Assembly: GCF_003019035.1 (NCBI RefSeq)
Contig: NZ_CP027447.1
Reading direction: 5' to 3' (one strand)
From: Escherichia coli
GTDB taxonomy: Bacteria > Pseudomonadota > Gammaproteobacteria > Enterobacterales > Enterobacteriaceae
DNA length: 64,000 nucleotides
Shown: piece after piece, positions 10,394 through 49,133 of the stretch
Numbering within the stretch: position 1 is the stretch's first letter
Layout of the letters: every line of letters begins with the position of its first letter
Position numbers and translations under genes: made by a program
Notes under the pieces: model-generated
What the model was told of the DNA's origin: nothing
What the model saw: the letters and a program-made list of their open reading frames with translations, nothing else
The model's database searches: none

Positions 10394-10513
10394 ATGCCTG
10401 GCAGTTCCCTACTCTCGCATGGGGAGACCCCACACTACCATCGGCGCTACGGCGTTTCACTTCTGAGTTCGGCATGGGGTCAGGTGGGACCACCGCGCTA
10501 AGGCCGCCAGGCA
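10394..10513 (-). rRNA. rrfG: 5S ribosomal RNA
   Basis: Reverse complement of 10394-10513 reads TGCCTGGCGGCC...GGGAACTGCCAGGCAT, a 120-nt E. coli 5S rRNA. Confidence 0.97.
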
Positions 10514-10606
10514 AATTCTGTTTCATCAGACCGCTTCTGCGTTCTGATTTAATCTGTATCAGGCTGAAAATCTTTCTCTCATCCGCCAAAACACCTTCGG
10601 CGTTGT

Positions 10607-13510
<2,904 letters not shown>

Positions 13511-13733
13511 TCACAACCCGAAGATGTTTCACTTCAGAGTTGCGAGAATTTGAGAGACTCACGAACAACTTTCGTTGTTCAGTGTTTCAATTTTCAGCTT
13601 GATCCAGATTTTTAAAGAGCAAATATCTCAAACGTCACCCGAAGATGAGTTTTGAGATATTAAGGCAGGTGACTTTCACTCACAAACCAGCAAGTGGCGT
13701 CCCCTGGGAGGTTTGACCTCATCAGTTAACGCT

Positions 13734-13809
13734 TGGCGTCCCCTAGGGGATTCGAACCCCTGTTACCGCCGTGAAAGGGCGGTGTCCTGGGCCTCTAGAC
13801 GAAGGGGAC
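13734..13809 (-). tRNA. gltW: tRNA-Glu (UUC) in the 16S-23S spacer
   Basis: Reverse complement GTCCCCTTCGTCTAGAGGCCCAGGACACCGCCCTTTCACGGCGGTAACAGGGGTTCGAATCCCCTAGGGGACGCCA, 76 nt. Confidence 0.96.
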
Positions 13810-13894
13810 GTATCAGTCTGCTTCGCAAGACGCCTTGCTTTTCACTTTCTATCAGACAATCTGTGTGAGCACTGCAAAGTACGCTTCTTTAAGG

Positions 13895-15436
<1,542 letters not shown>

Positions 15437-39759: not shown

Positions 39760-40123
39760 GGGGCTGATTCTGGATTCGACGGGATTTGCGAAACCCAAGG
39801 TGCATGCCGAGGGGCGGTTGGCCTCGTAAAAAGCCGCAAAAAATAGTCGCAAACGACGAAAACTACGCTTTAGCAGCTTAATAACCTGCTTAGAGCCCTC
39901 TCTCCCTAGCCTCCGCTCTTAGGACGGGGATCAAGAGAGGTCAAACCCAAAAGAGATCGCGTGGAAGCCCTGCCTGGGGTTGAAGCGTTAAAACTTAATC
40001 AGGCTAGTTTGTTAGTGGCGTGTCCGTCCGCAGCTGGCAAGCGAATGTAAAGACTGACTAAGCATGTAGTACCGAGGATGTAGGAATTTCGGACGCGGGT
40101 TCAACTCCCGCCAGCTCCACCAC
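39760..40123 (+). ncRNA. ssrA: tmRNA (transfer-messenger RNA, 10Sa RNA)
   Basis: GGGGCTGATTCTGGATTCGACGGG... through the tag reading frame gcaaacgacgaaaactacgctttagcagcttaa (ANDENYALAA) to the tRNA-like 3' end GGTTCAACTCCCGCCAGCTCCACCA. Confidence 0.96.
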
Positions 40124-40156
40124 TTTTTAGTAAAATGACGTCTACTAAAGTCTACT

Positions 40157-40191
40157 AAGGCCGCATACCACAAGGGTTTGCGGCCTTTTTC
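40157..40191 (+). terminator. Rho-independent terminator downstream of ssrA, inside the island left arm
   Basis: aaggccgcataccacaagggtttgcggcc hairpin followed by ttttt. Confidence 0.75.
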
Positions 40192-40289
40192 ATGTCCAGT
40201 GAAGTCTACTGAGAATTGCTAGAAACCACTCCTTATGGCACCCTCCTATTATCCCTCGTCGATGAGGGAGTAAAAACGAGGGAGCAAAA

Positions 40290-41522
40290 ATGCCAAAGGT
40301 AGCAACAAAACTCACTGACACAGAGATCAAAAAGGCCAAGCCCACAGAGAAAGAGTTCACGCTATGGGATGGAGATGGCTTGTTCCTGCGCATCAAACCA
40401 AGTGGCAAAAAAATCTGGCACCTCGGCTATACCGTTCCATTAACCAAGAAACGGGCCAAAATGAGTCTTGGGTTCTATCCCTACCTGACACTTGCTCAAG
40501 CAAGAGCGCTACGGGATGAATACCTCTCTTTGCTTGCACAGGGTATCGATCCCCAATCCCACAATGAGCAAAAAGCCCAAGCGCTTAAAGATGCCACTGA
40601 ACACACATTCCAGACTGTAGCGAAAAAATGGCTTGATGAAAAAATTAAAACATCAGGCATATCGCAAGATCATGCTAAGGATATCTGGCGTAGCCTTGAA
40701 CGGAACATCTTTCCTACTTTAGGGGATGTTCCCATTAAAGAGATCCGCCCTAAAATGTTAAAACAACACCTTGACCCCATAGAACAAAGGGGCGTACTCG
40801 AAACCTTGCGACGTATAATTTCCCGACTTAATGAAATTTTCCGCTATGCCGCGACAGAAGAACTCATTGAGTTCAACCCCGCTGACAACCTTATCCAACG
40901 TTTTAGTAAACCCAAAAAGCAAAATATGCCTGCGTTGCCGCCAGATGAACTACCCCGTTTCATGACAGCATTATCAAACGCATCTATACGCTTAGAAACA
41001 CGTCTACTAATTGAATGGCAACTTCTTACTTGGGTTCGTCCCGGTGAAGCTGTACGCGCTCGCTGGACTGACATAGACGAAGAAAGCAAGTATTGGAACA
41101 TTCCATCCGATTTCATGAAGATGAAACGTCCTCATAAGGTTCCATTGAGCAAAGAAGCTATACGTATTCTTGAATCCATGAAACCAATCAGCGGTCATCG
41201 TGAGTGGGTTTTCCCCAGCATAAAAAATCCTTTAACACATATGCACGAGCAAACTGCCAACGCCGCATTAATCCGAATGGGCTTAGGTGGAGAACTCGTA
41301 GCACATGGCATGCGTTCTATTGCAAGAACAGCAGCAGAAGAAGCAGGAAAATTTAGGACAGAAGTTCTTGAAGCGGCTCTCGCCCACTCAAAAAAAGATG
41401 AAATCATTGCTGCTTATAACCGTACAGAATATTTAGTCGAGCGTGTCGAGTTAATGCAATGGTGGAGTGATTATCTCCAAATACAAAAATATAAGTCTTT
41501 AACAACTCTGATCGCCAGCTAA
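40290..41522 (+). CDS. P4-type (IntA/SlpA-like) tyrosine site-specific integrase
   Basis: 410 aa; N-terminal arm-binding region (KLTDTEIKKAKP...LWDGDGLFLRIKPSGKKIW) and C-terminal catalytic region with R...HxxR...Y context (VAHGMRSIARTAA...LAHS...AYNRTEY); located directly after ssrA. Confidence 0.92.
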   Translation: MPKVATKLTDTEIKKAKPTEKEFTLWDGDGLFLRIKPSGKKIWHLGYTVPLTKKRAKMSLGFYPYLTLAQARALRDEYLSLLAQGIDPQSHNEQKAQALKDATEHTFQTVAKKWLDEKIKTSGISQDHAKDIWRSLERNIFPTLGDVPIKEIRPKMLKQHLDPIEQRGVLETLRRIISRLNEIFRYAATEELIEFNPADNLIQRFSKPKKQNMPALPPDELPRFMTALSNASIRLETRLLIEWQLLTWVRPGEAVRARWTDIDEESKYWNIPSDFMKMKRPHKVPLSKEAIRILESMKPISGHREWVFPSIKNPLTHMHEQTANAALIRMGLGGELVAHGMRSIARTAAEEAGKFRTEVLEAALAHSKKDEIIAAYNRTEYLVERVELMQWWSDYLQIQKYKSLTTLIAS

Positions 41523-41679
41523 TCCTACAATCAACCCAATATCAGAAGCTGGCTTTAGTAGGGATACTTCCATTTTTCTGATATTGTATTACCATGTAGC
41601 TGAAAGTCAGATACCAAGTAGAAAAACACATTTTTATGTATGCTTTATCGAATAAAACATTAACCAAATAGGGGGACTA

Positions 41680-42399
41680 ATGGAAGATTTAGTTTGTAGT
41701 TGGTCACCAAAGCTGATCGTTGATCTTATAAAAAGTATCGCTTGGCCAGTAGTCGTCCTTCTCATCGGCTTCAGTTTTCGAACTCGAATTTTTGAAGTGG
41801 CACGTTCATTTTTTTCTAAAAACACAGTTTCAGAAATATCAGCTACAGTATCAGGTGTATCGGCAAAATTTGTGACAGCAAAGCAAACAACTGAAGTATT
41901 AGAAAGTGCTAGTACCAATGCAGCGAATTTACCAAAGAGTATGAGTATTGAGGCTATAAGAGCGCGACATGAACAGCATAAAACAGAATTCAGCGAAGAG
42001 TTATATCAATCAATAATTAAACATGCTTCCTCTTTAGATATTAATAATGATGAAAAAGTCAAAATTCTGGCACGTGAATTGTCTATTTATCAAGCTATAA
42101 TACGATATATTGACATTAATAAGATATTATTTCGCTCACAATACAATTTATTTTGTTCTATAAATAGTAATGGTGGTCAAATAAATAAAGAAGACGCCAA
42201 TCTTTTTTTTGAGGCGACCAAGAACAACAATAAAGAAGCATTCTCCGATTGGGATTGGATTAAATATATTGCCTATCCTGTTAGTAATAGCCTTATCTAT
42301 GAAGATAATAATTTTTATAAACTTACAGAGTTGGGAAGATCGTATATAGCTTTTATGTCAAAAAATCCACAACTAATCGACGAACTTGCAAAATTATAG
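41680..42399 (+). CDS. Hypothetical membrane-anchored protein (N-terminal TM helix), island cargo
   Basis: 239-aa ORF with aggggga RBS; hydrophobic segment IAWPVVVLLIGFSF; AT-rich codon usage; no recognisable family. Confidence 0.6.
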   Translation: MEDLVCSWSPKLIVDLIKSIAWPVVVLLIGFSFRTRIFEVARSFFSKNTVSEISATVSGVSAKFVTAKQTTEVLESASTNAANLPKSMSIEAIRARHEQHKTEFSEELYQSIIKHASSLDINNDEKVKILARELSIYQAIIRYIDINKILFRSQYNLFCSINSNGGQINKEDANLFFEATKNNNKEAFSDWDWIKYIAYPVSNSLIYEDNNFYKLTELGRSYIAFMSKNPQLIDELAKL

Positions 42400-42629
42400 T
42401 AGGGAATAATATTAAACCCTACTCAATGACTGTTTCAGATCTTGGTTCTGTATCCCATAAATGATCAGGTAAAGTCTAAGCGAATAGCGTTTAACAGGTG
42501 GGATGACTCACTACGTGAACCACCCACCTATAAAAAGGGTTTTTCTTCTGGTGAGTTGTCAATAAAAATGAAGGTTTCCACCTTTCATGCGGACCCTCCT
42601 TAATTTTTTTTGACAAGTTGAGATCGAGA

Positions 42630-43082
42630 CTATTTATCATTACGTTTTTTCATAAAATATTTATAACGTTCATCAGCTTCTTTTTGAAACTTTTCAGCGT
42701 CAAACGTATCAGTTTCTATTTTTATTTTTTGTTTTACCGCTTCATCTAATCTTTTATTTTCTTTCAATCTTTCTTTTTCTACTAATATAAGTTTATAGTA
42801 TTTTAGCTTAATATTAAAACTTGCTTTTGCTAACTCCTTAGCGTCAAAACCTATATTGTATTTTTTAAGAAGTTTCAATATATAATCTATAGTCATTTTT
42901 TTCACTTCCTTTTTTATTTTTTCTTCATGCGCATCTTTTTTTATACTCCCACTTTTTAACCATTGCTTAAATTTATAGCCATTATAATGCTGCCATTGAT
43001 ATATTTCAGCGGCATACATCACCGACAACATACAAACAATAAAAAATACAACCATAAAAACCACACATATTAAATAATACAT
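42630..43082 (-). CDS. Hypothetical membrane-anchored Lys/Glu-rich protein, gene 6
   Basis: 150 aa; N-terminal TM LICVVFMVVFFIVCMLSVMYAA then a charged helical region. Confidence 0.55.
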   Translation of the reverse strand: MYYLICVVFMVVFFIVCMLSVMYAAEIYQWQHYNGYKFKQWLKSGSIKKDAHEEKIKKEVKKMTIDYILKLLKKYNIGFDAKELAKASFNIKLKYYKLILVEKERLKENKRLDEAVKQKIKIETDTFDAEKFQKEADERYKYFMKKRNDK

Positions 43083-43083
43083 A

Positions 43084-43320
43084 TCAGCCCCCGCCTTTCC
43101 TTCTATATTGTTCTTTTATTAATGCTACGTGATATTTTTTTGCGTTGCTTATACTTACATCAGCAGAGTTTCTAGCAGAAGCAAAAGCACTTGAAACAAC
43201 AGAAGCAATAATGGCAACTAAGAAAGCAGCAACAAAAAAACCCATCACTGGCCCCATAAAACTAGCCCCACCGTCATCTATTGCTGGTTTTGCTTTTGCT
43301 AATAATGATAATAGGCTCAT
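43084..43320 (-). CDS. Hypothetical small membrane protein (single TM), gene 5
   Basis: 78 aa; hydrophobic core GPVMGFFVAAFLVAIIASVVSSAF followed by a basic tail. Confidence 0.55.
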   Translation of the reverse strand: MSLLSLLAKAKPAIDDGGASFMGPVMGFFVAAFLVAIIASVVSSAFASARNSADVSISNAKKYHVALIKEQYRRKGGG

Positions 43321-43730
43321 ATATTTCTCTCTTCTTCAATGTTTTTAATCGCTGTTTCTATTCTTTGTTTTACAAAGTCTCTAAACACATAACCTATTAT
43401 TCGCGCGTCTTCACATATATCTAACTCATCTTTTTTATGAAAATATAAATCAGCGCTTAAAAGCTCTTCGCTTTGAATATTTAACATTTTACTAGCAAGT
43501 GATATTCTAATAATATTTCGCACTTCTAAATCCAAGCTTGCTCTATCATGCTTATTCAAAAGCTGGAGCGGATGAAAATCTTTTTTTCTTTTCATTTCTT
43601 GCATATCATTATCAAAATCTATCATTAAAAAATGTAAGCAAGTAAAAGACGTATCATAGAAGTTTAAGCGGTTCATCATATCCGCCGTTCCCTCTTTTCG
43701 AGGGTTCGGGTTAGGTCTTAATTTATTCAT
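43317..43730 (-). CDS. Hypothetical protein, gene 4
   Basis: 137 aa; overlaps gene 3 by 8 bp and gene 5 by 4 bp. Confidence 0.55.
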   Translation of the reverse strand: MNKLRPNPNPRKEGTADMMNRLNFYDTSFTCLHFLMIDFDNDMQEMKRKKDFHPLQLLNKHDRASLDLEVRNIIRISLASKMLNIQSEELLSADLYFHKKDELDICEDARIIGYVFRDFVKQRIETAIKNIEEERNI

Positions 43731-44064
43731 CTGCTTTACTCCTTTTCTTGTTGTTTTTTAGCTTCCATTCATTCAATCTTTTATCGCCTTCAACTTTTAA
43801 GAACTCACGCTGATCGTGTATTCTTTTCAGTATTAGATTATTAGTTAACGCTCCTACTAACAAAGAAATATCATTCGCAAAATCTAATGTCTCGATGTTA
43901 TTTTCTCTAACTATTCTTATTAGTTCAGCGCCGGCTTTTATTTTACGTGTCGTATCTTTTTTCCTTTCTTCTGCCTTCATTTCTTGCTCCATTCTATTCA
44001 ATAAGTTTGCTCTTTGCTCAATTTCTTTTTTTAATTTATTATATTTTTCTATATTAAACGCCAT
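43723..44064 (-). CDS. Hypothetical basic coiled-coil protein, gene 3
   Basis: 113 aa, Lys/Glu-rich heptad-like N-terminus (EKYNKLKKEIEQRANLLNRMEQEMKAEERKK). Confidence 0.55.
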   Translation of the reverse strand: MAFNIEKYNKLKKEIEQRANLLNRMEQEMKAEERKKDTTRKIKAGAELIRIVRENNIETLDFANDISLLVGALTNNLILKRIHDQREFLKVEGDKRLNEWKLKNNKKRSKADE

Positions 44065-44383
44065 TTTCTGAACCTCTCTTTTCTTTTATCGTAATAAAAA
44101 AGGCAATCAACCCACTGATCAATAAAATTGGTAAAGTTAAAATAAACCCTACCAATAACACTAATGAAAATCCGAGCACGCCGGACATCTCATATAGATT
44201 TCCGAACAATGTGCTTTCGTTTTTATACTCAACCATATTCTGTAAAACAGACCTTTTTTCAATATCTTTTTCTTTTAAAGAATCTTCTCTATATTCATAA
44301 TCTTCACAACTCAAAGAAATTTCCACAGTGTTATCATTCAAATACTCATTATCATAATAGTCGTAATCATTATTCCCAATCAT
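44054..44383 (-). CDS. Hypothetical membrane protein (acidic Tyr/Asp-rich N-terminus, C-terminal TM segment), gene 2
   Basis: 109 aa; hydrophobic stretch GVLGFSLVLLVGFILTLPILLISGLIAFFITI; translationally coupled to neighbours. Confidence 0.55.
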   Translation of the reverse strand: MIGNNDYDYYDNEYLNDNTVEISLSCEDYEYREDSLKEKDIEKRSVLQNMVEYKNESTLFGNLYEMSGVLGFSLVLLVGFILTLPILLISGLIAFFITIKEKRGSENGV

Positions 44384-44565
44384 TCTAGATCTCCTTCTAA
44401 CGTGTCATAAACAACAGTAAAATCATTCTCATGAGAAAGAAGATTGTAAGTTATAAATAAGCTTGTCCTATAAACAATATCTGTATTTTCATCCTGTAGT
44501 TTTTGAATAATCAACTTAACAAGATCAGACGCTGCCACTTCAATTTTTTTATCAATATCATTCAT
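44380..44565 (-). CDS. Hypothetical small acidic protein, gene 1 of the six-gene island operon
   Basis: 61 aa; agagg-type RBS; stop overlaps the next gene start by 4 bp. Confidence 0.5.
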   Translation of the reverse strand: MNDIDKKIEVAASDLVKLIIQKLQDENTDIVYRTSLFITYNLLSHENDFTVVYDTLEGDLE

Positions 44566-44737
44566 GTTCCACCTCTTTTATTTTTTATGATTTCTGTTAT
44601 ATATATTAAGTAATATAATTATTTATTTAAGTAAAGCGCGATATATATTTTTTTGTTTTTAGAACGCATTTTTCAGATAAAAGGCTCACGTGCGGCGGCT
44701 ATTTTAGTTTTGCTAAAAACTACAATAGCGCACTTAT

Positions 44738-44761
44738 ACATTCTTCGAATGTGTGCGCCCC
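44738..44761 (+). promoter_or_regulatory. Candidate origin of transfer (oriT) with MobQ-type nick motif
   Basis: Inverted repeat acattc-ttc-gaatgt immediately followed by GTGCGCCCC, resembling the recalled RSF1010 oriT nick region (IR + TAAGTGCG/CCCT); lies about 115 bp upstream of the relaxase gene. Confidence 0.55.
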
Positions 44762-44874
44762 ATAAATGGGGGTTTACTAACGCAGAAAAATAAAAAGTAA
44801 TATTCGCTTTATGCTCAATATTACTTAATCGCTTTTCAAAAAAGCAAATATATTTTTATTATTTTAAAAAGTAT

Positions 44875-46203
44875 GTGTTTCAATATCAGGAGATAAAAAC
44901 AATGGCAATATTTCATATGAGCGCTCAAACAATAACACGCAGCAAGGGGTATAGTAGCGTAGCTGCGGCAGCTTATCGCCACGGCGAAAAGTTAACGGAC
45001 GAACACACAGGAGAGATCCACGACTACAGCAAAAAGAAAGGTGTTTCAGACAGTGTTATATTAATACCTGAAAGCGCAGACCGTAATTTTTTAAAGCCTG
45101 CGTATTTATGGAACATGATAGAAAAAAGCGAAAAAAGAAAAGATGCGCAGTTAGCTCGCGAGTTTAATATTGCGCTTCCTGTCGAAATGACAGATGAACA
45201 AAAAAAGGCGTTAGCAATAGATTTTTGCCAAGAGCATTTTGTAAAAAATGGAATGATTGCTGATATAGCTTTTCACAAGCTCGATAGCGACAACCCACAT
45301 TTTCATGTAATGCTAACCACCCGCAGCCTTACGCCGGACGGTTCAGAGTTCGGACATAAAGTCAGGGAATGGAACAACAAAGAGCAGCTCGAAGGCTGGC
45401 GCAAGAGCTGGGCTGACACAGCGAACGAGCACATGCAAAAGGCTGGCATCGATGCGCATATAGATCACAGATCACTGAAAGAACAAAAAGCAGAGCTTGA
45501 CGCTATCCTCCCCCCTCTCAGAACGATTGAGCAAGAGGCGCAGGCTATCAGCTTAGACAGACCGCCGACTATCCATAGAGGCCATAGCCGCAATCCAGAG
45601 CGACAAGCACGCTTTGACGTGCTCCAAGAAGTGAAAGTATCACAAGAGGAAAAAGCACTTAACCACATTGAACAGAAACAACTTAAGCCCTCGCCGCTGG
45701 CTCCAGCTTCCTCCCCTGCCGCATCTTTGCAAGATGCTACACAAGGAGGCAATGAAAACAACCCGCAAAATAGACTCGGCGAAGTTGGCGAATATCTTCA
45801 ATCTAAACTCAATAAAGAAGATAAAGCAGATCTTAATACTGATAATGAAATCAAAGTTCACACTACTAAAAATAATAGGGAAAGCAGTTCAGCAGCAGCT
45901 ATAGGTTCAACATCAAATATTAATTTAACCGATGAGAAAACAGATAAGAATCTACACTTAACAGAAGCACAAAAAGAAGAGTTAGAGGATTTAGAAAATA
46001 AAGAAGCAGCAGCGAAGAAAAAAGCTTATCTGATGAGCGGAGCTGCCGTTCCTGAACTTTCTCAAGATTACAAAACACTGTCAAAAAGTGAGTTTAAAAA
46101 TAAGCTTCATACAGCTAAACAATCAATATCATTAACTGAAAAGAGATTTAATGAAGAATGTGAAGCATATGATAACAGAAGAAAACGACCAATACCGCGC
46201 TAA
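44875..46203 (+). CDS. MobA/MobL-family (MobQ-type) conjugative relaxase, relaxase domain only
   Basis: N-terminus MAIFHMSAQTITRSKGYSSVAAAAYRHGEKL aligns with RSF1010 MobA MAIYHLTAKTGSRSGG...ADYIQREGKY (catalytic Tyr region); HFHVMLTTR matches the His motif HCHLMISER; C-terminal half is low-complexity Lys/Glu/Ser-rich with no primase domain. Confidence 0.85.
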   Translation: MFQYQEIKTMAIFHMSAQTITRSKGYSSVAAAAYRHGEKLTDEHTGEIHDYSKKKGVSDSVILIPESADRNFLKPAYLWNMIEKSEKRKDAQLAREFNIALPVEMTDEQKKALAIDFCQEHFVKNGMIADIAFHKLDSDNPHFHVMLTTRSLTPDGSEFGHKVREWNNKEQLEGWRKSWADTANEHMQKAGIDAHIDHRSLKEQKAELDAILPPLRTIEQEAQAISLDRPPTIHRGHSRNPERQARFDVLQEVKVSQEEKALNHIEQKQLKPSPLAPASSPAASLQDATQGGNENNPQNRLGEVGEYLQSKLNKEDKADLNTDNEIKVHTTKNNRESSSAAAIGSTSNINLTDEKTDKNLHLTEAQKEELEDLENKEAAAKKKAYLMSGAAVPELSQDYKTLSKSEFKNKLHTAKQSISLTEKRFNEECEAYDNRRKRPIPR

Positions 46204-46563
46204 GTATTTTGCTCATTTTTTATCCCCAATGAATGACTTAGCGTTATATTTACTTTAACTAATTGATACTATTGATTTATTTTCACCTCACGTCGTATCG
46301 TTTATATCGATCAAAATCGACAAAGTGATAGTTAACACCTATCACAACCAATTCATCGATCGATTAAAACAATTAATACACCGATCGATAAACGAGATTT
46401 AATCGTTAAAAACTATCAATATTAAATAATTGATCTGTTATAACGATCATTTTGCTTGAGAGTAGCCCTCCTCATGGTATGCTCGGAGCGTGGAAGACCG
46501 GGCTACTCACCTTGATATCTTCTTGATTAAGCAAAACTATCGCTCTATGAGGAATGAAATTTT

Positions 46564-47058
46564 ATGAAAACCGAAAACATTATTTTTCTTGTTTGGGCAG
46601 TGATTTTTATCCTGATTCTCTGCCAACTTTTTTATTTTGGCCCTAAAAAAAGAAGATACCTCAATACTTATATAGAGGTATTAGATGGTGATGTCCTCTC
46701 ATATGAATGTCAAAATACCGGCGTAGTTATTGATACTAAAAAAAACACAGTACGTATTTTCAATACATATAAGGACAGCACTTTCAAATACGACAACATC
46801 AGGGAAATAAATTATACGCTATCCGAAGCCGGAAAAATTTATAGCACAAGTAATAATCTAAACTCTATGATAAAGTCCGCTGGAGCTAACAGTAATGAAC
46901 AAATGTTAGCTAATCAGCGTTCCGGTATTTTTATACTGACAGATGATATAAAAAATCCTTCATGGAAAATCAATCTACCAATGAAAAACAAAACATCATC
47001 TACCAATCAGGAGATCTGCGATCGATGGCTTCTCATTTTTAAAAAATACGTTTTATAA
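46564..47058 (+). CDS. Hypothetical membrane-anchored protein
   Basis: 164 aa; gagga RBS; N-terminal TM IIFLVWAVIFILILCQLFYF. Confidence 0.55.
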   Translation: MKTENIIFLVWAVIFILILCQLFYFGPKKRRYLNTYIEVLDGDVLSYECQNTGVVIDTKKNTVRIFNTYKDSTFKYDNIREINYTLSEAGKIYSTSNNLNSMIKSAGANSNEQMLANQRSGIFILTDDIKNPSWKINLPMKNKTSSTNQEICDRWLLIFKKYVL

Positions 47059-47090
47059 CTTTGTTTTTTATTTTTATCTTTGGAGTTGAC

Positions 47091-47468
47091 ATGAAAAAAT
47101 TGATTGCGGCAGCATTTATTATTCTCCCTTTAGCAAGTTGTACTGTTTATGGAAACAAATCCATTAAAGACGAAACGCAGCAAAATATAGCCTCTAAAAT
47201 TATAAAAGGTAAAACTACTCAAAAAGATATCCTTCAACTTTATGGAGAACCTCAGACTAAAGAAACTAACGATGGTAAAGAAATGTGGGGATATTCCGTT
47301 ATGTCCGGTGAATCTCAGATTTCAAATTACATACCGGGATTAGCGTTATTGAAGAATAGCAGCACAGCGCACATGAAAGAACTTGAGATCTTGTTTAAAG
47401 GTGATGTAGTTGAACGCTATACCTTTAGACAAACGGCAAGCAAAGCTTCTCGCGGGTTGTTAGATTAA
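47091..47468 (+). CDS. Hypothetical lipoprotein (possible SmpA/OmlA-like fold)
   Basis: Start at MKKLIAAAFIILPLASC (lipobox LASC) preceded by ggag RBS; about 125 aa; weak pattern similarity to BamE-type lipoproteins (Q..L..YG.P.....W.Y). Confidence 0.55.
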   Translation: MKKLIAAAFIILPLASCTVYGNKSIKDETQQNIASKIIKGKTTQKDILQLYGEPQTKETNDGKEMWGYSVMSGESQISNYIPGLALLKNSSTAHMKELEILFKGDVVERYTFRQTASKASRGLLD

Positions 47469-47730
47469 TTTAAATTAAATACCATTTTATCTTTAAAAAG
47501 AAGTTGGAATAGTCCGACTTCTTTTCTATTTTATCAATAACATGCATTATTTATATTAGTGCCTTATGAAATGGCACCTTACTTTTTATATTTCCCTATC
47601 TGGGGGTTTAACCTTTGTTTTTTATTAAAAAAAATTTTGTACTAGTAGTACTAATTAATTAATTTAAAAATTTTTGGTTTTAAGGTTTTGGGGTTTGTGT
47701 TTTAGCGGGGCGGCTTTCAGCCGTAGTAGT

Positions 47731-47760
47731 TTTCCTCCGAAGGAGGAAATAGTTTTTCTT
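47731..47760. terminator. Perfect palindrome followed by T-run (terminator-like) in the island non-coding region
   Basis: tttcctccgaaggaggaaa followed by tagtttttcttt. Confidence 0.5.
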
Positions 47761-48087
47761 TAAGCATTCCCCCCCTACCCCCCACGCCAAAAAGGCTAAA
47801 AAAGAGAGATAGGAGATGCTCATTGCGTCTTGAAAATATTCAGAACGTTTCCATTCTGATACTTCCCCCACGACCCACGCAAACACAAATCATGAAACTT
47901 TCAAACAACTCTCGTTTTACTAAAGAGTCTATGCTACTGTTTGTAAATTTTTTAGATTGTGCGATTCAGGTTGGCAGCTACGCATATCCCGGTTAACCGC
48001 TGCCGCAATATTCTAAGTTTCACCAAACACTCGATGTCCTTCGTACTTAGACCTTGATACAACAAGGGTAATATTATATTGCTTTTG

Positions 48088-48223
48088 TAGATTAAATGTT
48101 TCTGGAAATGGTATTGACATTTTATCTATGTCAAAGTCGGCGAAATTTGTTTAATCATGCAGATTAGAGGCTTCTGGAAGTGGTATTTAATATTAGTTAA
48201 AAGTCGACGAAGCATTTCTAATC
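48088..48223. repeat. Tandem imperfect direct repeat of about 66-70 bp (two copies)
   Basis: Copy 1 gtagattaaatgtttctggaaatggtattgacatt...gtcaaagtcggcgaaatttgtttaatc and copy 2 gcagattagaggcttctggaagtggtatttaatatt...aaaagtcgacgaagcatttctaatc align by eye with several mismatches and a short gap. Confidence 0.6.
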
Positions 48224-48469
48224 TTTTGTATCTTTATATTATATAAATCTATATATAACACCAGTCAATAGATGAAATCAAAAATATTTTAAAAACATGA
48301 CTAGATGAAAAACAAAAAAAGACCAGATTAAACCCCAGTCTCTTTTTTACTTAATATCAGTTATGTTTTTCATATATAGTTCTAAAACGCTCTGTACGCG
48401 ATTTTGAGACGTTTTACACTGGAAGCGGCGTAATCATATAAATAATAAAATAGAATACTGTAATGATTT

Positions 48470-48673
48470 TTATGCCGCTTGATTACGCGAATAAAAAATC
48501 TTATCATCAATCCATTCGTCAACTTCACTTTCAACAAATGCGATAGTTCTTTCACCAGTCTTGATCGGAGAAGGGAAATCACCCCGGCTAATCAGCCGAT
48601 AGATCCACGCTTTACAAAAACCAGTCTTGTTTAACACTTCGGGTATGCGGATAAGTCTTTTTCTTTCGTTCAT
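48470..48673 (-). CDS. AlpA-family (HTH_17, excisionase-like) transcriptional regulator
   Basis: MNERKRLIRIPEVLNKTGFCKAWIYRLISRGDFPSPIKTGERTIAFVESEVDEWI matches the AlpA/prophage CP4-57 regulator pattern; start chosen at the Met preceded by a gagga RBS (ORF track starts 4 codons upstream). Confidence 0.8.
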   Translation of the reverse strand: MNERKRLIRIPEVLNKTGFCKAWIYRLISRGDFPSPIKTGERTIAFVESEVDEWIDDKIFYSRNQAA

Positions 48674-49133
48674 ATATTTCCTCATAGTTGTTTTGATGAG
48701 GCTATTATTCGAATATCGCTTATGACGATCAACAACTTTTTTAGCAAAAAGTGCTTTTTTAGTTGACTATTTTAAATTAACAGTCATTTAATCACCTTTG
48801 GAAGTTGAACTCATGAGTTCAACTCCTCACCGCTAGTCATGACATTCAAAATGTGCTTATTTTTTAGCCACAATACTTTTTTTATCCCTTTATTGCACCT
48901 CAATGTAAAATACAAATAATTAATATATTTAATAATCAAATGATTAAAGAGTCGATTACAGGGACGCCAGCCAATCATGATTGGACGGTGTAAGGACAAC
49001 ACTAATAAAAACAGGAAGTTAGCAGTCTCAGCAGGACACCGACCAGACGGTGAGGAGACATAAAAGGATACGCAAAGGAGCCGCGGCCCCTGGTGATATG
49101 AAAGCCCACAGATGTGGGCTTTTTCGTTGATGG

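What the first reader, a model, noticed from the sequence alone, without database searches (positions are those of the whole stretch)
42630..44565. Six-gene translationally coupled operon of small membrane and coiled-coil proteins with no recognisable homology
Six minus-strand ORFs (61, 109, 113, 137, 78 and 150 aa) are packed with 1-bp gaps or 4- and 8-bp start/stop overlaps, which implies co-translation and stoichiometric assembly. Three have a single hydrophobic transmembrane segment, one is a basic coiled coil and one is strongly acidic. The operon is transcribed divergently from the relaxase across the oriT-containing intergenic region. I recognise none of the proteins. The arrangement fits accessory cargo of a mobile element, such as an anti-phage or abortive-infection module, an entry or surface exclusion module, or a minimal membrane complex assisting mobilization, but this is a hypothesis only.
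Basis: inference. Interest (0 to 1): 0.85.

Follow-up and report, generated by a model that had tools for sequence, protein, structure and literature searches.

The report
Accessory gene operon of a plasmid-mobilization module
The six small genes are real and conserved, and they are the fixed partner of a DNA-transfer enzyme (relaxase) in a small mobile element; one is a distant relative of known transfer helper proteins (MobC/TraD) and the other five have no known relatives.

Summary
Six minus-strand ORFs lie at 42630-44565, each with a Shine-Dalgarno sequence, separated by a 1-bp gap or overlapping by 4, 8 or 11 bp, and all under purifying selection (dN/dS 0.04-0.32).

The window is E. coli chromosome. 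The operon sits in an ~8.5-kb integrative mobilizable element at ssrA.

The operon is backbone, not cargo. P3-P6 always lie divergent from the same MOBQ relaxase across a conserved oriT. This holds in ssrA elements of E. coli, Pectobacterium and Photorhabdus, in an element with an unrelated integrase, and in 5.4-7.2-kb rolling-circle plasmids, down to 32-40% protein identity. The variable slot next to the integrase carries defence-type genes instead.

P3 is a remote homologue of the relaxosome accessory proteins RSF1010 MobC and Ti TraD (hhalign 87-93% probability, far above shuffled controls). The layout mirrors mobA|oriT|mobC and traA|oriT|traCDG.

P1, P2, P4, P5 and P6 have no relatives outside this lineage: an exhaustive search of 1.84 billion proteins found only family members. 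Neither modelled protein (P4, P6) gave an informative fold match.

Best reading: an expanded accessory arm of a MOBQ mobilization module, with three membrane-anchored proteins of untested role. It is a new variant of a known kind and of moderate interest.

The parts
39760..40122 (+). ssrA (tmRNA), integration site of the element (context)
   Evidence: ARAGORN, tag ANDENYALAA. The same position is seen in the related E. coli, Pectobacterium and Photorhabdus loci.
40290..41522 (+). P4-type tyrosine integrase of the integrative mobilizable element (context)
   Evidence: ORF. Annotated 'integrase domain-containing protein' in the 99%-identical SCU-301 locus. Homologues carry Arm-DNA-bind_3/Phage_integrase domains.
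41680..42399 (+). 239-aa protein in the variable cargo slot (not part of the operon)
   Evidence: Other members of the element family carry HEPN, reverse transcriptase or methyltransferase genes in this slot. No family hit.
42630..43082 (-). P6: N-terminal membrane anchor plus Lys-rich helical domain predicted to be cytoplasmic; core gene, orphan family
   Evidence: Hydropathy and flanking charges. AlphaFold2 pLDDT 80, pTM 0.44. No Pfam or PDB match. Relatives down to 32-37% identity always lie in the same operon.
43084..43320 (-). P5: 78-aa single-pass membrane protein with a basic C-terminal tail; core gene, orphan family
   Evidence: dN/dS 0.05-0.19.
43317..43730 (-). P4: soluble all-alpha helical bundle; core gene, orphan family
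43723..44064 (-). P3: basic coiled-coil protein, a remote homologue of the relaxosome accessory proteins MobC (RSF1010) and TraD (Ti); core gene
   Evidence: hhalign against the TraD family: Prob 90-93%, P 4e-7 to 1.6e-6. Against RSF1010 MobC: Prob 87%, P 3.7e-6. Both lie far above 100 shuffled controls. Pfam DUF3847 i-E 5.9e-4, with 6 of 15 family members at or below 1e-3.
44054..44383 (-). P2: acidic N-terminal domain plus a long hydrophobic segment; present in most but not all relatives
   Evidence: Absent from the 5.4-kb plasmids and from L018. Fused to P1 in L006.
44380..44565 (-). P1: 61-aa acidic protein, the first gene of the operon in the ssrA elements only; this position is exchangeable
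   Evidence: Replaced by a 129-140-aa ORF in L001 and L008, and by a 66-aa ORF in L009.
44566..44874 (.). Intergenic control region: oriT plus the conserved leader of the operon. It contains hairpin 1 (44758-44771), hairpin 2 (44738-44752), the nick-region core ATAAGTGCGC (44728-44737, minus strand) and a 14-bp inverted repeat (44698-44729).
   Evidence: The same core and two-hairpin layout occur in pTi and RSF1010. Compensatory changes in both hairpins are seen across loci.
44902..46203 (+). MOBQ relaxase (relaxase domain about residues 1-200, followed by a low-complexity C-terminal half)
   Evidence: NCBIfam MobQ 6.9e-76, TraA_Ti 3.3e-63. ATG start as annotated in SCU-301. About 50% identical to the MOBQ4 relaxase domain.
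46564..47058 (+). DUF4755 protein, found only in the integrated elements (context)
   Evidence: Pfam DUF4755 2.4e-10. Present in the ssrA elements and absent from the plasmids.
47091..47468 (+). Predicted lipoprotein, found only in the integrated elements (context)
   Evidence: PHROG 3135 1.4e-28. A lipobox-like N-terminus is read directly from the sequence; the Pfam lipoprotein attachment-site match is not significant (LPAM_1 i-E 0.27).
48470..48685 (-). AlpA-family regulator or excisionase at the far end of the element (context)
   Evidence: Pfam Phage_AlpA 4e-16.

Best explanation
The operon is the accessory arm of a MOBQ-type DNA-transfer (mobilization) module. The relaxase gene and the operon are transcribed divergently from a shared ~310-bp control region that contains oriT.

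P3 is a MobC/TraD-type relaxosome accessory protein. By analogy with RSF1010 MobC and Ti TraD, it acts with the relaxase at oriT to promote nicking, and possibly autoregulates the divergent promoters.

P4 (soluble helical bundle), P5 and P6 (membrane-anchored, with basic parts predicted to face the cytoplasm), plus P2 and P1 where present, are lineage-specific partners. I infer that they hold the relaxosome at the inner membrane and help present it to the coupling protein or secretion channel of a helper conjugative plasmid. That is the job done in RSF1010 by the small membrane protein MobB.

Shown: the genes are real. They are strictly linked to the relaxase and oriT across unrelated backbones. 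P3 is homologous to MobC/TraD. The oriT is present.

Inferred: any role of P1, P2, P4, P5 and P6 in transfer; complex formation; membrane tethering.
For: 1. Linkage. P3-P6 sit divergent from the same relaxase clade in every context found:
- ssrA elements in E. coli, Pectobacterium and Photorhabdus;
- a minimal 5.7-kb element with an integrase only 34% identical;
- Rep_1 rolling-circle plasmids of 5.4-7.2 kb.

The gene order persists at 32-40% identity in L009. All 10 complete E. coli genomes with this relaxase and oriT also have the operon.

2. Backbone versus cargo. The neighbouring slot varies (HEPN, reverse transcriptase, methyltransferase, or the 239-aa protein), while the operon does not.

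3. P3 homology. hhalign scores are 39.1-39.8 against the Ti TraD family and 36.5 against RSF1010 MobC. The maxima of 100 shuffles are 19.4 and 20.8, and reversed sequences score 11-13. Pfam DUF3847 is borderline-positive. DUF3847 genes accompany and co-evolve with MOBQ2 relaxases in Faecalibacterium mobilizable elements (PMC12084326).

4. Layout. The nick motif reads towards the accessory genes here, in pTi (traC, traD) and in RSF1010 (mobC). The nearest relaxases (about 50% identity) lie on 4.07-kb E. coli and 9.5-kb Salmonella plasmids with a divergent mobC. I assign these to the MOBQ4 family from their size, gene content and the paper's description. There the single divergent mobC raises mobilization by 0.6-1.5 log (PMC6856555).

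5. Precedent for a small membrane protein in a MOBQ module. RSF1010 MobB (137 aa) has a C-terminal hydrophobic segment, read directly from the sequence.

6. Economy. Four unknown genes take up about 26% of a 5.4-kb plasmid that otherwise holds only rep and mobQ.
Against: Only P3 has any homology to transfer proteins. P2, P4, P5 and P6 show nothing against MobB, MobC or TraC (Prob <= 1%), Pfam, NCBIfam, PHROGs or PADLOC. The P4 and P6 models match no informative fold in the structure libraries searched.

The sister MOBQ4 plasmids mobilize with a single, non-essential accessory gene. Four extra genes are therefore not obviously needed for relaxosome function.

Linkage to a relaxase would also be expected for exclusion or establishment functions.

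No experiment or expression data exist for this family. The P3 similarity rests on a core of about 40-50 residues and stays below curated family thresholds (NCBIfam TraD 14.6 bits against a cut-off of 117).
Confidence: 0.55

Rival explanations
1. Entry or surface exclusion, or interference with competing elements. The membrane proteins P2, P5 and P6 sit in the inner membrane of a cell that already carries the element and block entry of the same or related elements through a helper's channel. P3 alone serves the relaxosome.
For: There are three small membrane proteins. From my own knowledge, exclusion proteins are typically small inner-membrane proteins and ColE1 MbeD/Exc are reported to give exclusion. 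Linkage to the mobilization module is equally expected under this reading.
Against: The bulk of P5 and P6 is predicted to be cytoplasmic and basic, whereas exclusion determinants usually face the periplasm. Nothing resembles known exclusion families in Pfam, NCBIfam or the exhaustive search. The soluble protein P4 is conserved with them as a tightly coupled unit.
Confidence: 0.15
2. Leading-region establishment or anti-defence genes. The operon lies on the side of oriT that enters the recipient first, and its products protect or establish the incoming DNA.
For: The orientation of the nick motif places the operon immediately 3' of the nick on the transferred strand, so it enters first (plus the established 5'-to-3' transfer polarity). 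The proteins are small and fast-evolving, and P1 and P2 are acidic.
Against: The transferred strand is the sense strand of the operon, so it cannot serve as template for early single-strand transcription. traC/traD and mobC occupy the same side and are relaxosome genes. Three of the proteins are membrane-anchored, which is unusual for anti-restriction or SOS-inhibitor proteins. No anti-defence family is hit.
Confidence: 0.1
3. Anti-phage defence or abortive-infection cargo.
For: The module is compact, multi-gene, membrane-associated, orphan, and on a mobile element. The element family does carry defence-type genes.
Against: Those defence-type genes sit in a separate variable slot, while the operon is invariant backbone. 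It is also the only non-replication, non-relaxase content of minimal 5.4-kb plasmids. There are no significant PADLOC hits (best E 0.011). P3 is a MobC/TraD homologue. Co-occurrence with the relaxase is strict.
Confidence: 0.05
4. Maintenance or addiction function, such as a membrane toxin with antidotes or copy or segregation control.
For: There are small hydrophobic proteins next to small acidic or basic partners. The host is a small high-copy plasmid.
Against: The operon is retained in integrated elements that have no replicon. Some plasmids of the family carry a separate ParE/RHH addiction pair as well. Four to six genes is far more than known toxin-antitoxin systems use. In two E. coli elements IS1 removed the relaxase while the operon stayed intact; this is neutral evidence.
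Confidence: 0.05
5. Remnant or satellite of a filamentous-phage-like element. A rolling-circle Rep is combined with small coat-like membrane proteins; P5 has an acidic N-terminus, a hydrophobic core and a basic C-terminus.
For: The family's plasmids use an HUH rolling-circle Rep (Rep_1). P5's layout resembles a major coat protein (the resemblance is my own reading).
Against: No tblastn match to 50,697 phage records. No significant PHROG hit for any of the six (best E 0.07). There is no assembly ATPase or adsorption protein. The operon also occurs without Rep in integrated elements, and it is always linked to a conjugative relaxase and oriT.
Confidence: 0.02

Closest known systems
MOBQ4 mobilizable plasmids of enterobacteria (pIGWZ12 and ColE9-J types): mobA | oriT | mobC (Garcillan-Barcia et al. 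2019, PMC6856555)
   Same: The nearest relaxases found are about 50% identical over the relaxase domain. I assign the 4.07-kb E. coli plasmids that carry them to MOBQ4 by size, gene content and the paper's description. They share the nick-region core GTATAAGTGCGC. A small accessory gene lies beside oriT, divergent from the relaxase gene. P3 aligns to that MobC over the same core (P 6e-4, Prob 28%). The hosts are also the same (Enterobacteriaceae).
   Different: MOBQ4 plasmids have a single accessory gene of under 100 aa, a roughly 720-aa relaxase with a primase-like C-terminus, and Rep_3 or ColE2 replicons. Here there are four to eight accessory-side genes including three membrane proteins, a relaxase of 384-442 aa, and Rep_1 rolling-circle replicons or integrases. 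The P3 to MOBQ4-MobC similarity is weak.
RSF1010/R1162 (IncQ1, MOBQ1) mobilization region: mobA-mobB | oriT | mobC
   Same: P3 matches MobC (hhalign Prob 87%, P 3.7e-6, 53 columns; shuffled controls reach at most 20.8 against 36.5). The oriT core TAAGTGCGC follows an inverted repeat, and the nick motif reads towards the accessory gene. That system also has a small membrane-anchored accessory protein, MobB.
   Different: MobB shows no similarity to P2, P4, P5 or P6 and is encoded inside mobA on the relaxase side. RSF1010 has no counterparts of P4-P6. Its relaxase is fused to a primase.
Ti-plasmid type (MOBQ2) Dtr region: traAFBH | oriT | traCDG
   Same: P3 matches the TraD family (Prob 90-93%). 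The relaxase N-terminus matches TraA_Ti (3.3e-63). There is a two-hairpin plus ATAA(T/G)TGCGC oriT, and a divergent accessory operon on the same side of the nick. PMC4700958 describes the divergent operons and the RSF1010-like oriT core.
   Different: There is no TraC homologue and no TraG coupling protein. The element cannot transfer itself. P3 carries N- and C-terminal extensions that the 71-aa TraD lacks.
DUF3847 (PF12958) genes next to MOBQ2 relaxases in Firmicutes mobilizable elements (PMC12084326)
   Same: There are borderline Pfam matches of the P3 family to DUF3847: best i-E 2.7e-5, 6 of 15 members at or below 1e-3, 13 of 15 at or below 0.1. The genomic association with a MOBQ relaxase is the same.
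   Different: The matches are near threshold and the most divergent P3 (L009) does not match. No DUF3847 sequences could be obtained for a profile-to-profile test.

Membership tests
MobC (RSF1010 type) / TraD (Ti type, PF06412) relaxosome accessory proteins - for P3 | Sequence similarity over the conserved core (basic R-K-x-(D/E)-T-x-R-K-(I/V)-x-x-G-(G/A) motif followed by a hydrophobic helix) | tested here: met
   hhalign against the TraD alignment gives Prob 90-93%; against MobC, Prob 87%. Scores of 36.5-39.8 compare with at most 20.8 in 200 shuffled controls.
MobC (RSF1010 type) / TraD (Ti type, PF06412) relaxosome accessory proteins - for P3 | Passes the curated family thresholds (Pfam TraD, NCBIfam PRK13847) | tested here: not met
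   Pfam TraD best i-E 0.024 in 2 of 15 members. NCBIfam TraD 14.6 bits against a cut-off of 117. P3 is therefore a remote relative, not a member of the curated TraD family.
MobC (RSF1010 type) / TraD (Ti type, PF06412) relaxosome accessory proteins - for P3 | Gene lies beside oriT, divergent from a MOBQ relaxase gene, on the 3' side of the nick | tested here: met
MobC (RSF1010 type) / TraD (Ti type, PF06412) relaxosome accessory proteins - for P3 | Binds oriT or the relaxase and raises transfer frequency | not testable with these tools
   Needs EMSA and mating assays.
MOBQ mobilization (Dtr) module - for the locus as a whole | MOBQ relaxase with the MobA_MobL domain | tested here: met
   NCBIfam MobQ 254 bits against a cut-off of 200. 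PF03389 is present on all homologues.
MOBQ mobilization (Dtr) module - for the locus as a whole | oriT with an inverted repeat followed by a TAAGTGCGC-type nick region | tested here: met
   Compared with pTi and RSF1010. The hairpins covary.
MOBQ mobilization (Dtr) module - for the locus as a whole | Mobilized by a helper conjugative system | not testable with these tools
   No experiment is possible. MOB-suite even calls these plasmids 'non-mobilizable'.
IncQ-type MobB - for P2, P4, P5, P6 | Sequence similarity to MobB | tested here: not met
   hhalign Prob <= 1% for all four. Any likeness is functional analogy only.
Ti-type TraC - for any of the six | Sequence similarity to TraC | tested here: not met
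Known anti-phage defence systems (PADLOC-DB 2.0) | A match of any protein to a defence-system model | tested here: not met
   Best E 0.011-0.017, on fragments of unrelated models.
Filamentous phage (inovirus) morphogenesis module | Similarity to phage proteins, or presence of an assembly ATPase or adsorption protein | tested here: not met
   No PHROG hit at E below 0.07 for the six. No tblastn match in 50,697 phage records. No such genes are present on the complete 5.4-6.5-kb plasmids.

The most novel reading that the evidence does not exclude
P2, P4, P5 and P6 form a previously undescribed inner-membrane-anchored adaptor complex. It tethers a MOBQ relaxosome (relaxase plus the MobC/TraD-like P3 on oriT) to the membrane and docks it onto a helper plasmid's coupling protein. 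This would be a new solution to the problem that RSF1010 solves with MobB, and possibly the determinant of which helpers the element can exploit.
Probability: 0.3. Interest if true: 0.6.

Novelty: new variant of a known kind. Interest (0 to 1): 0.4.

Why it matters
Small mobilizable plasmids and integrative mobilizable elements move many genes between enterobacteria. How their relaxosomes reach a helper's secretion machine is understood for only a few models.

This lineage spends about a quarter of a 5.4-kb genome on four conserved proteins of unknown function, two of them membrane-anchored (P5 and P6). They are strictly linked to a MOBQ relaxase. If they act in transfer, they would define a new class of relaxosome accessory or docking factors. 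They could also explain helper specificity for a family that typing tools currently call 'non-mobilizable'.

The same module mobilizes an ssrA island family whose variable slot carries defence-type genes (HEPN, reverse transcriptase, methyltransferase). It is therefore relevant to how defence genes spread.

If the genes instead act in exclusion or establishment, the result is still a compact, testable orphan module.

Tried and rejected
- **Family libraries.** NCBIfam, PHROGs and PADLOC on all six proteins gave nothing significant. Pfam on a concatenate of the six gave nothing at E <= 0.001. Pfam on the P6 family gave nothing.
- **Sequence searches.** Word-index searches for P3, P4 and a P3 profile returned only close family members. 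An exhaustive phmmer search of concatenated P1+P2+P4+P5+P6 against 1.84 billion representatives gave 26 hits, all family members.
- **Known accessory proteins.** No similarity of P3 to TraC, of P2, P4, P5 or P6 to MobB, MobC or TraC, or among P2-P6 themselves.
- **Other collections.** tblastn of a divergent P3 against plasmids at E <= 10 found no DUF3847-annotated genes, so no DUF3847 profile test was possible. tblastn of P2-P6 against phages found no match.
- **Element end.** A search for an attR copy of the ssrA 3' end found none within 3 mismatches of 21-32 nt and no convincing direct repeat. The right end of the element is therefore not defined.
- **Missing record.** RSF1010 accession NC_001740 is not in the collection. 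An IncQ1 plasmid found through the oriT sequence was used instead.
- **Signals and literature.** The promoter scan was no better than shuffles (16 against 13.0 +/- 3.1), so no promoter is claimed. Literature searches found no paper on this plasmid or element family.
Full report
**Where the locus is**

The window carries ssrA (tmRNA, tag ANDENYALAA) at 39760-40122. It matches the E. coli chromosome region grpE-nadK-recN-bamE-ratA-smpB-ssrA. Directly after ssrA comes a low-GC stretch (31-43% against about 50%) that contains, in order:
- a P4-type integrase (40290-41522);
- a 239-aa ORF;
- the six minus-strand ORFs;
- a MobQ relaxase (NCBIfam MobQ 6.9e-76);
- a DUF4755 protein, a predicted lipoprotein and an AlpA-family gene.

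This is an integrative mobilizable element of roughly 8.5 kb. I could not define its right end.

**The observation**

All six ORFs are at the stated coordinates and lengths.
- The junctions are overlaps of 4, 11, 8 and 4 bp and one 1-bp gap.
- Each start has a Shine-Dalgarno sequence.
- Nei-Gojobori dN/dS against four to five diverged copies is 0.04-0.32 for every ORF, so all six are protein-coding genes under purifying selection.
- Hydropathy confirms one hydrophobic segment each in P2, P5 and P6. P3 is basic (net +7), and P1 and P2 are acidic (net -8 and -10).
- Flanking charges place the Lys-rich body of P6 and the basic tail of P5 in the cytoplasm. This is an inference from the positive-inside rule.

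**Backbone, not cargo**

The same operon, at 85-99% nucleotide identity, occurs in 12 of 5,426 complete E. coli genomes and on 12 small plasmids of Klebsiella, E. coli, Enterobacter and Salmonella.

The related ssrA elements share the integrase, the operon, mobQ, DUF4755, the lipoprotein and AlpA. Between the integrase and P6 they differ:
- the 239-aa ORF (window, SCU-301, 6EVA);
- an LA2681 HEPN protein (chicken isolate);
- a reverse transcriptase (pig and bovine E. coli, Pectobacterium);
- a D12 methyltransferase plus a 492-aa protein (Photorhabdus).

So the element has a variable slot with defence-type genes, and the operon is not in it.

The plasmids consist of an HUH rolling-circle Rep (Pfam Rep_1), mobQ and the operon, with little else. 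In the 5.4-kb form the whole non-rep, non-mob content is P3-P6, about 26% of the plasmid.

A third context is a 5.7-kb contig with a different integrase (34% identity), mobQ and P3-P6.

The most diverged relatives found by exhaustive search have the same layout:
- In L008, P4 is 39% identical.
- In L009, P6 is 36% identical by the exhaustive search (32% by tblastn).
- L009 keeps the order acidic-plus-TM protein, P3, soluble protein, small TM protein, P6, even where sequence similarity has decayed below detection.

P3-P6 are the core. P2 is usually present. The first position is exchangeable: P1 in the ssrA elements, a 129-140-aa ORF in L001 and L008, and a 66-aa ORF in L009. All 10 E. coli genomes with this relaxase and oriT have the operon. 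The two genomes with the operon but no relaxase lost it to IS1.

**The origin of transfer**

On the operon's strand the intergenic region reads CCCCATTTATGGGG (44758-44771), ACATTCGAAGAATGT (44738-44752) and then ATAAGTGCGC (44728-44737), followed by a 14-bp inverted repeat.
- Both hairpins keep pairing through compensatory changes in other loci: CCCCCTTTAGGGGG, GTCCATGAAATGGAC and ACATACGAAGTATGT.
- pTi has the same layout, with ACGCGTCGTATCACGACGT followed by ATAATTGCGC.
- The RSF1010 oriT, GGCCAGTTTCTCGAAGAGAAACCGGTAAGTGCGCCC, which I recalled and then confirmed as exact in 87 IncQ plasmids, has the same core.
- In all three systems the motif reads towards the accessory genes: mobC, traC-traD, and P1-P6.

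Given 5'-to-3' transfer from the nick, the operon is on the side that enters first, and the transferred strand is its sense strand.

The whole 310-bp region, including the leader and Shine-Dalgarno sequence before whichever gene comes first, is more conserved (69% mean column identity across eight loci) than the proteins are.

**What the proteins are**

P3 gives borderline Pfam hits to DUF3847:
- i-E is 5.9e-4 for the window protein.
- 6 of 15 family members score at or below 1e-3, and 13 of 15 at or below 0.1.
- There are faint hits to TraD.

A published survey reports a DUF3847 gene next to, and co-evolving with, every MOBQ2 relaxase in Faecalibacterium mobilizable elements (PMC12084326).

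I built a Ti-type TraD alignment from eight annotated plasmid genes. I took RSF1010-type MobC from an IncQ1 plasmid. Profile comparisons gave:
- P3 family against TraD: Prob 90-93%, P 4e-7 to 1.6e-6;
- P3 family against MobC: Prob 87%, P 3.7e-6 over 53 columns.

Controls show this is not composition:
- 100 shuffles of MobC reach at most 20.8, against 36.5.
- 100 column shuffles of TraD reach at most 19.4, against 39.8.
- Reversed sequences score 11-13.
- TraC, a similar small coiled-coil protein, scores nothing.

The shared core is ERKKDTTRKIKAGAELI in P3, ERKNETRRKVLVGAMIL in MobC and ARKKDTREKIELGGLIV in TraD. P3 scores better to each of them than they score to each other (22.0). It stays far below curated thresholds. 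I therefore call it a remote homologue of the MobC/TraD class, not a member of either curated family.

P1, P2, P4, P5 and P6 are orphans.
- The exhaustive search of 1.84 billion cluster representatives found 26 proteins, all from this lineage.
- P6 is a membrane helix followed by helices, with no fold or Pfam match.
- None resembles MobB, MobC or TraC, or any other protein of the operon.
- There is no match in phage records.

**Nearest described system**

The closest relaxases outside the family (about 50% identity) lie on 4.07-kb E. coli plasmids that carry a divergent 84-aa 'relaxase accessory protein MobC' and the same GTATAAGTGCGC core.

By size, gene content and description, these fit the MOBQ4 plasmids studied by Garcillan-Barcia et al. 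That paper reports three relevant findings (PMC6856555):
- mobC lies next to oriT, divergent from mobA.
- mobC is non-essential, but its deletion lowers mobilization by 0.6-1.5 log.
- MPF-I helpers are the most efficient.

P3 aligns weakly to that MobC over the same core (P 6e-4).

**Interpretation**

The operon is the accessory side of a MOBQ mobilization module. P3 takes the MobC/TraD role. P4-P6, with P2 and P1, are a lineage-specific expansion whose function is untested.

I favour a role in transfer, namely membrane tethering or docking of the relaxosome. RSF1010 MobB, a 137-aa protein with a hydrophobic C-terminal segment, gives a functional but not homologous precedent. Three observations point this way:
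- the strict linkage to the relaxase and oriT across unrelated backbones;
- the tight coupling to P3;
- the space the genes occupy in minimal plasmids.

Exclusion, establishment in the recipient, defence, maintenance and a phage-like origin are considered in the rival explanations. The last three are poorly supported. The first two cannot be excluded for the membrane proteins.

**Verdict**

The 'cargo or defence' framing is not supported, while the 'assists mobilization' option is. This is a new variant of a known kind of system and of moderate interest.

Noticed in passing
window 41680-42399 (+); compare L004 7017-8756, L005 7157-8755, L025 10662-13045, L026 9316-10815: The slot between the integrase and P6 is variable across the ssrA element family. 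It holds a 239-aa membrane-anchored protein with no family hit here, an LA2681 HEPN protein, a reverse transcriptase, or a D12 methyltransferase plus a 492-aa protein elsewhere. It looks like a defence-gene cargo slot, which makes the 239-aa protein an untested defence candidate.
   Followed up: partly
L003 (E. coli SCU-301) 12231-14160: The copy 99.4% identical to the window has all six ORFs broken into shorter annotated pieces by frameshifts. This reflects either homopolymer sequencing errors in AT-rich DNA or recent decay.
   Followed up: no
L006 (E. coli XJ5.2) 10407-10904: P1 and P2 are fused into one 165-aa ORF. If this is real rather than a sequencing error, it hints that the two act together.
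   Followed up: no
L006 10972-11669 and L007 10739-11436: IS1 insertions have removed oriT and mobQ in two E. coli elements, leaving P2/P3-P6 intact but the element immobile.
   Followed up: no
window 44566-44874 and alignment A8: The 310-bp relaxase-operon intergenic region is more conserved than the proteins it controls (69% mean column identity across eight loci, including L009). The leader and Shine-Dalgarno sequence are kept whichever gene comes first, which suggests dense cis-acting function and modular exchange of the first gene.
   Followed up: partly
window 46564-47468 (+): A DUF4755 protein and a predicted lipoprotein (PHROG 3135, 1.4e-28, unknown function) follow mobQ in the integrated elements but are absent from the plasmids. 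A phage-family lipoprotein here could be an exclusion factor.
   Followed up: no
window 40123-49130: No copy of the ssrA 3' end was found downstream (3 mismatches allowed in 21-32 nt), so the right boundary of the element is undefined. The element abuts ypjA (49134-53831).
   Followed up: partly
plasmid records NZ_CP083084.1, NZ_CP091681.1 and 10 others: MOB-suite typing in PLSDB labels all 12 plasmids of this family 'non-mobilizable' although they carry a MobQ relaxase and a canonical oriT. PGAP names Ti-type TraD 'type IV conjugative transfer system coupling protein TraD', confusing it with F TraD.
   Followed up: no
L008 5275-5807; L019 6304-6836: Some plasmids of the family carry an additional ParE/RHH toxin-antitoxin pair. 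L019 was assembled as a head-to-tail dimer.
   Followed up: no
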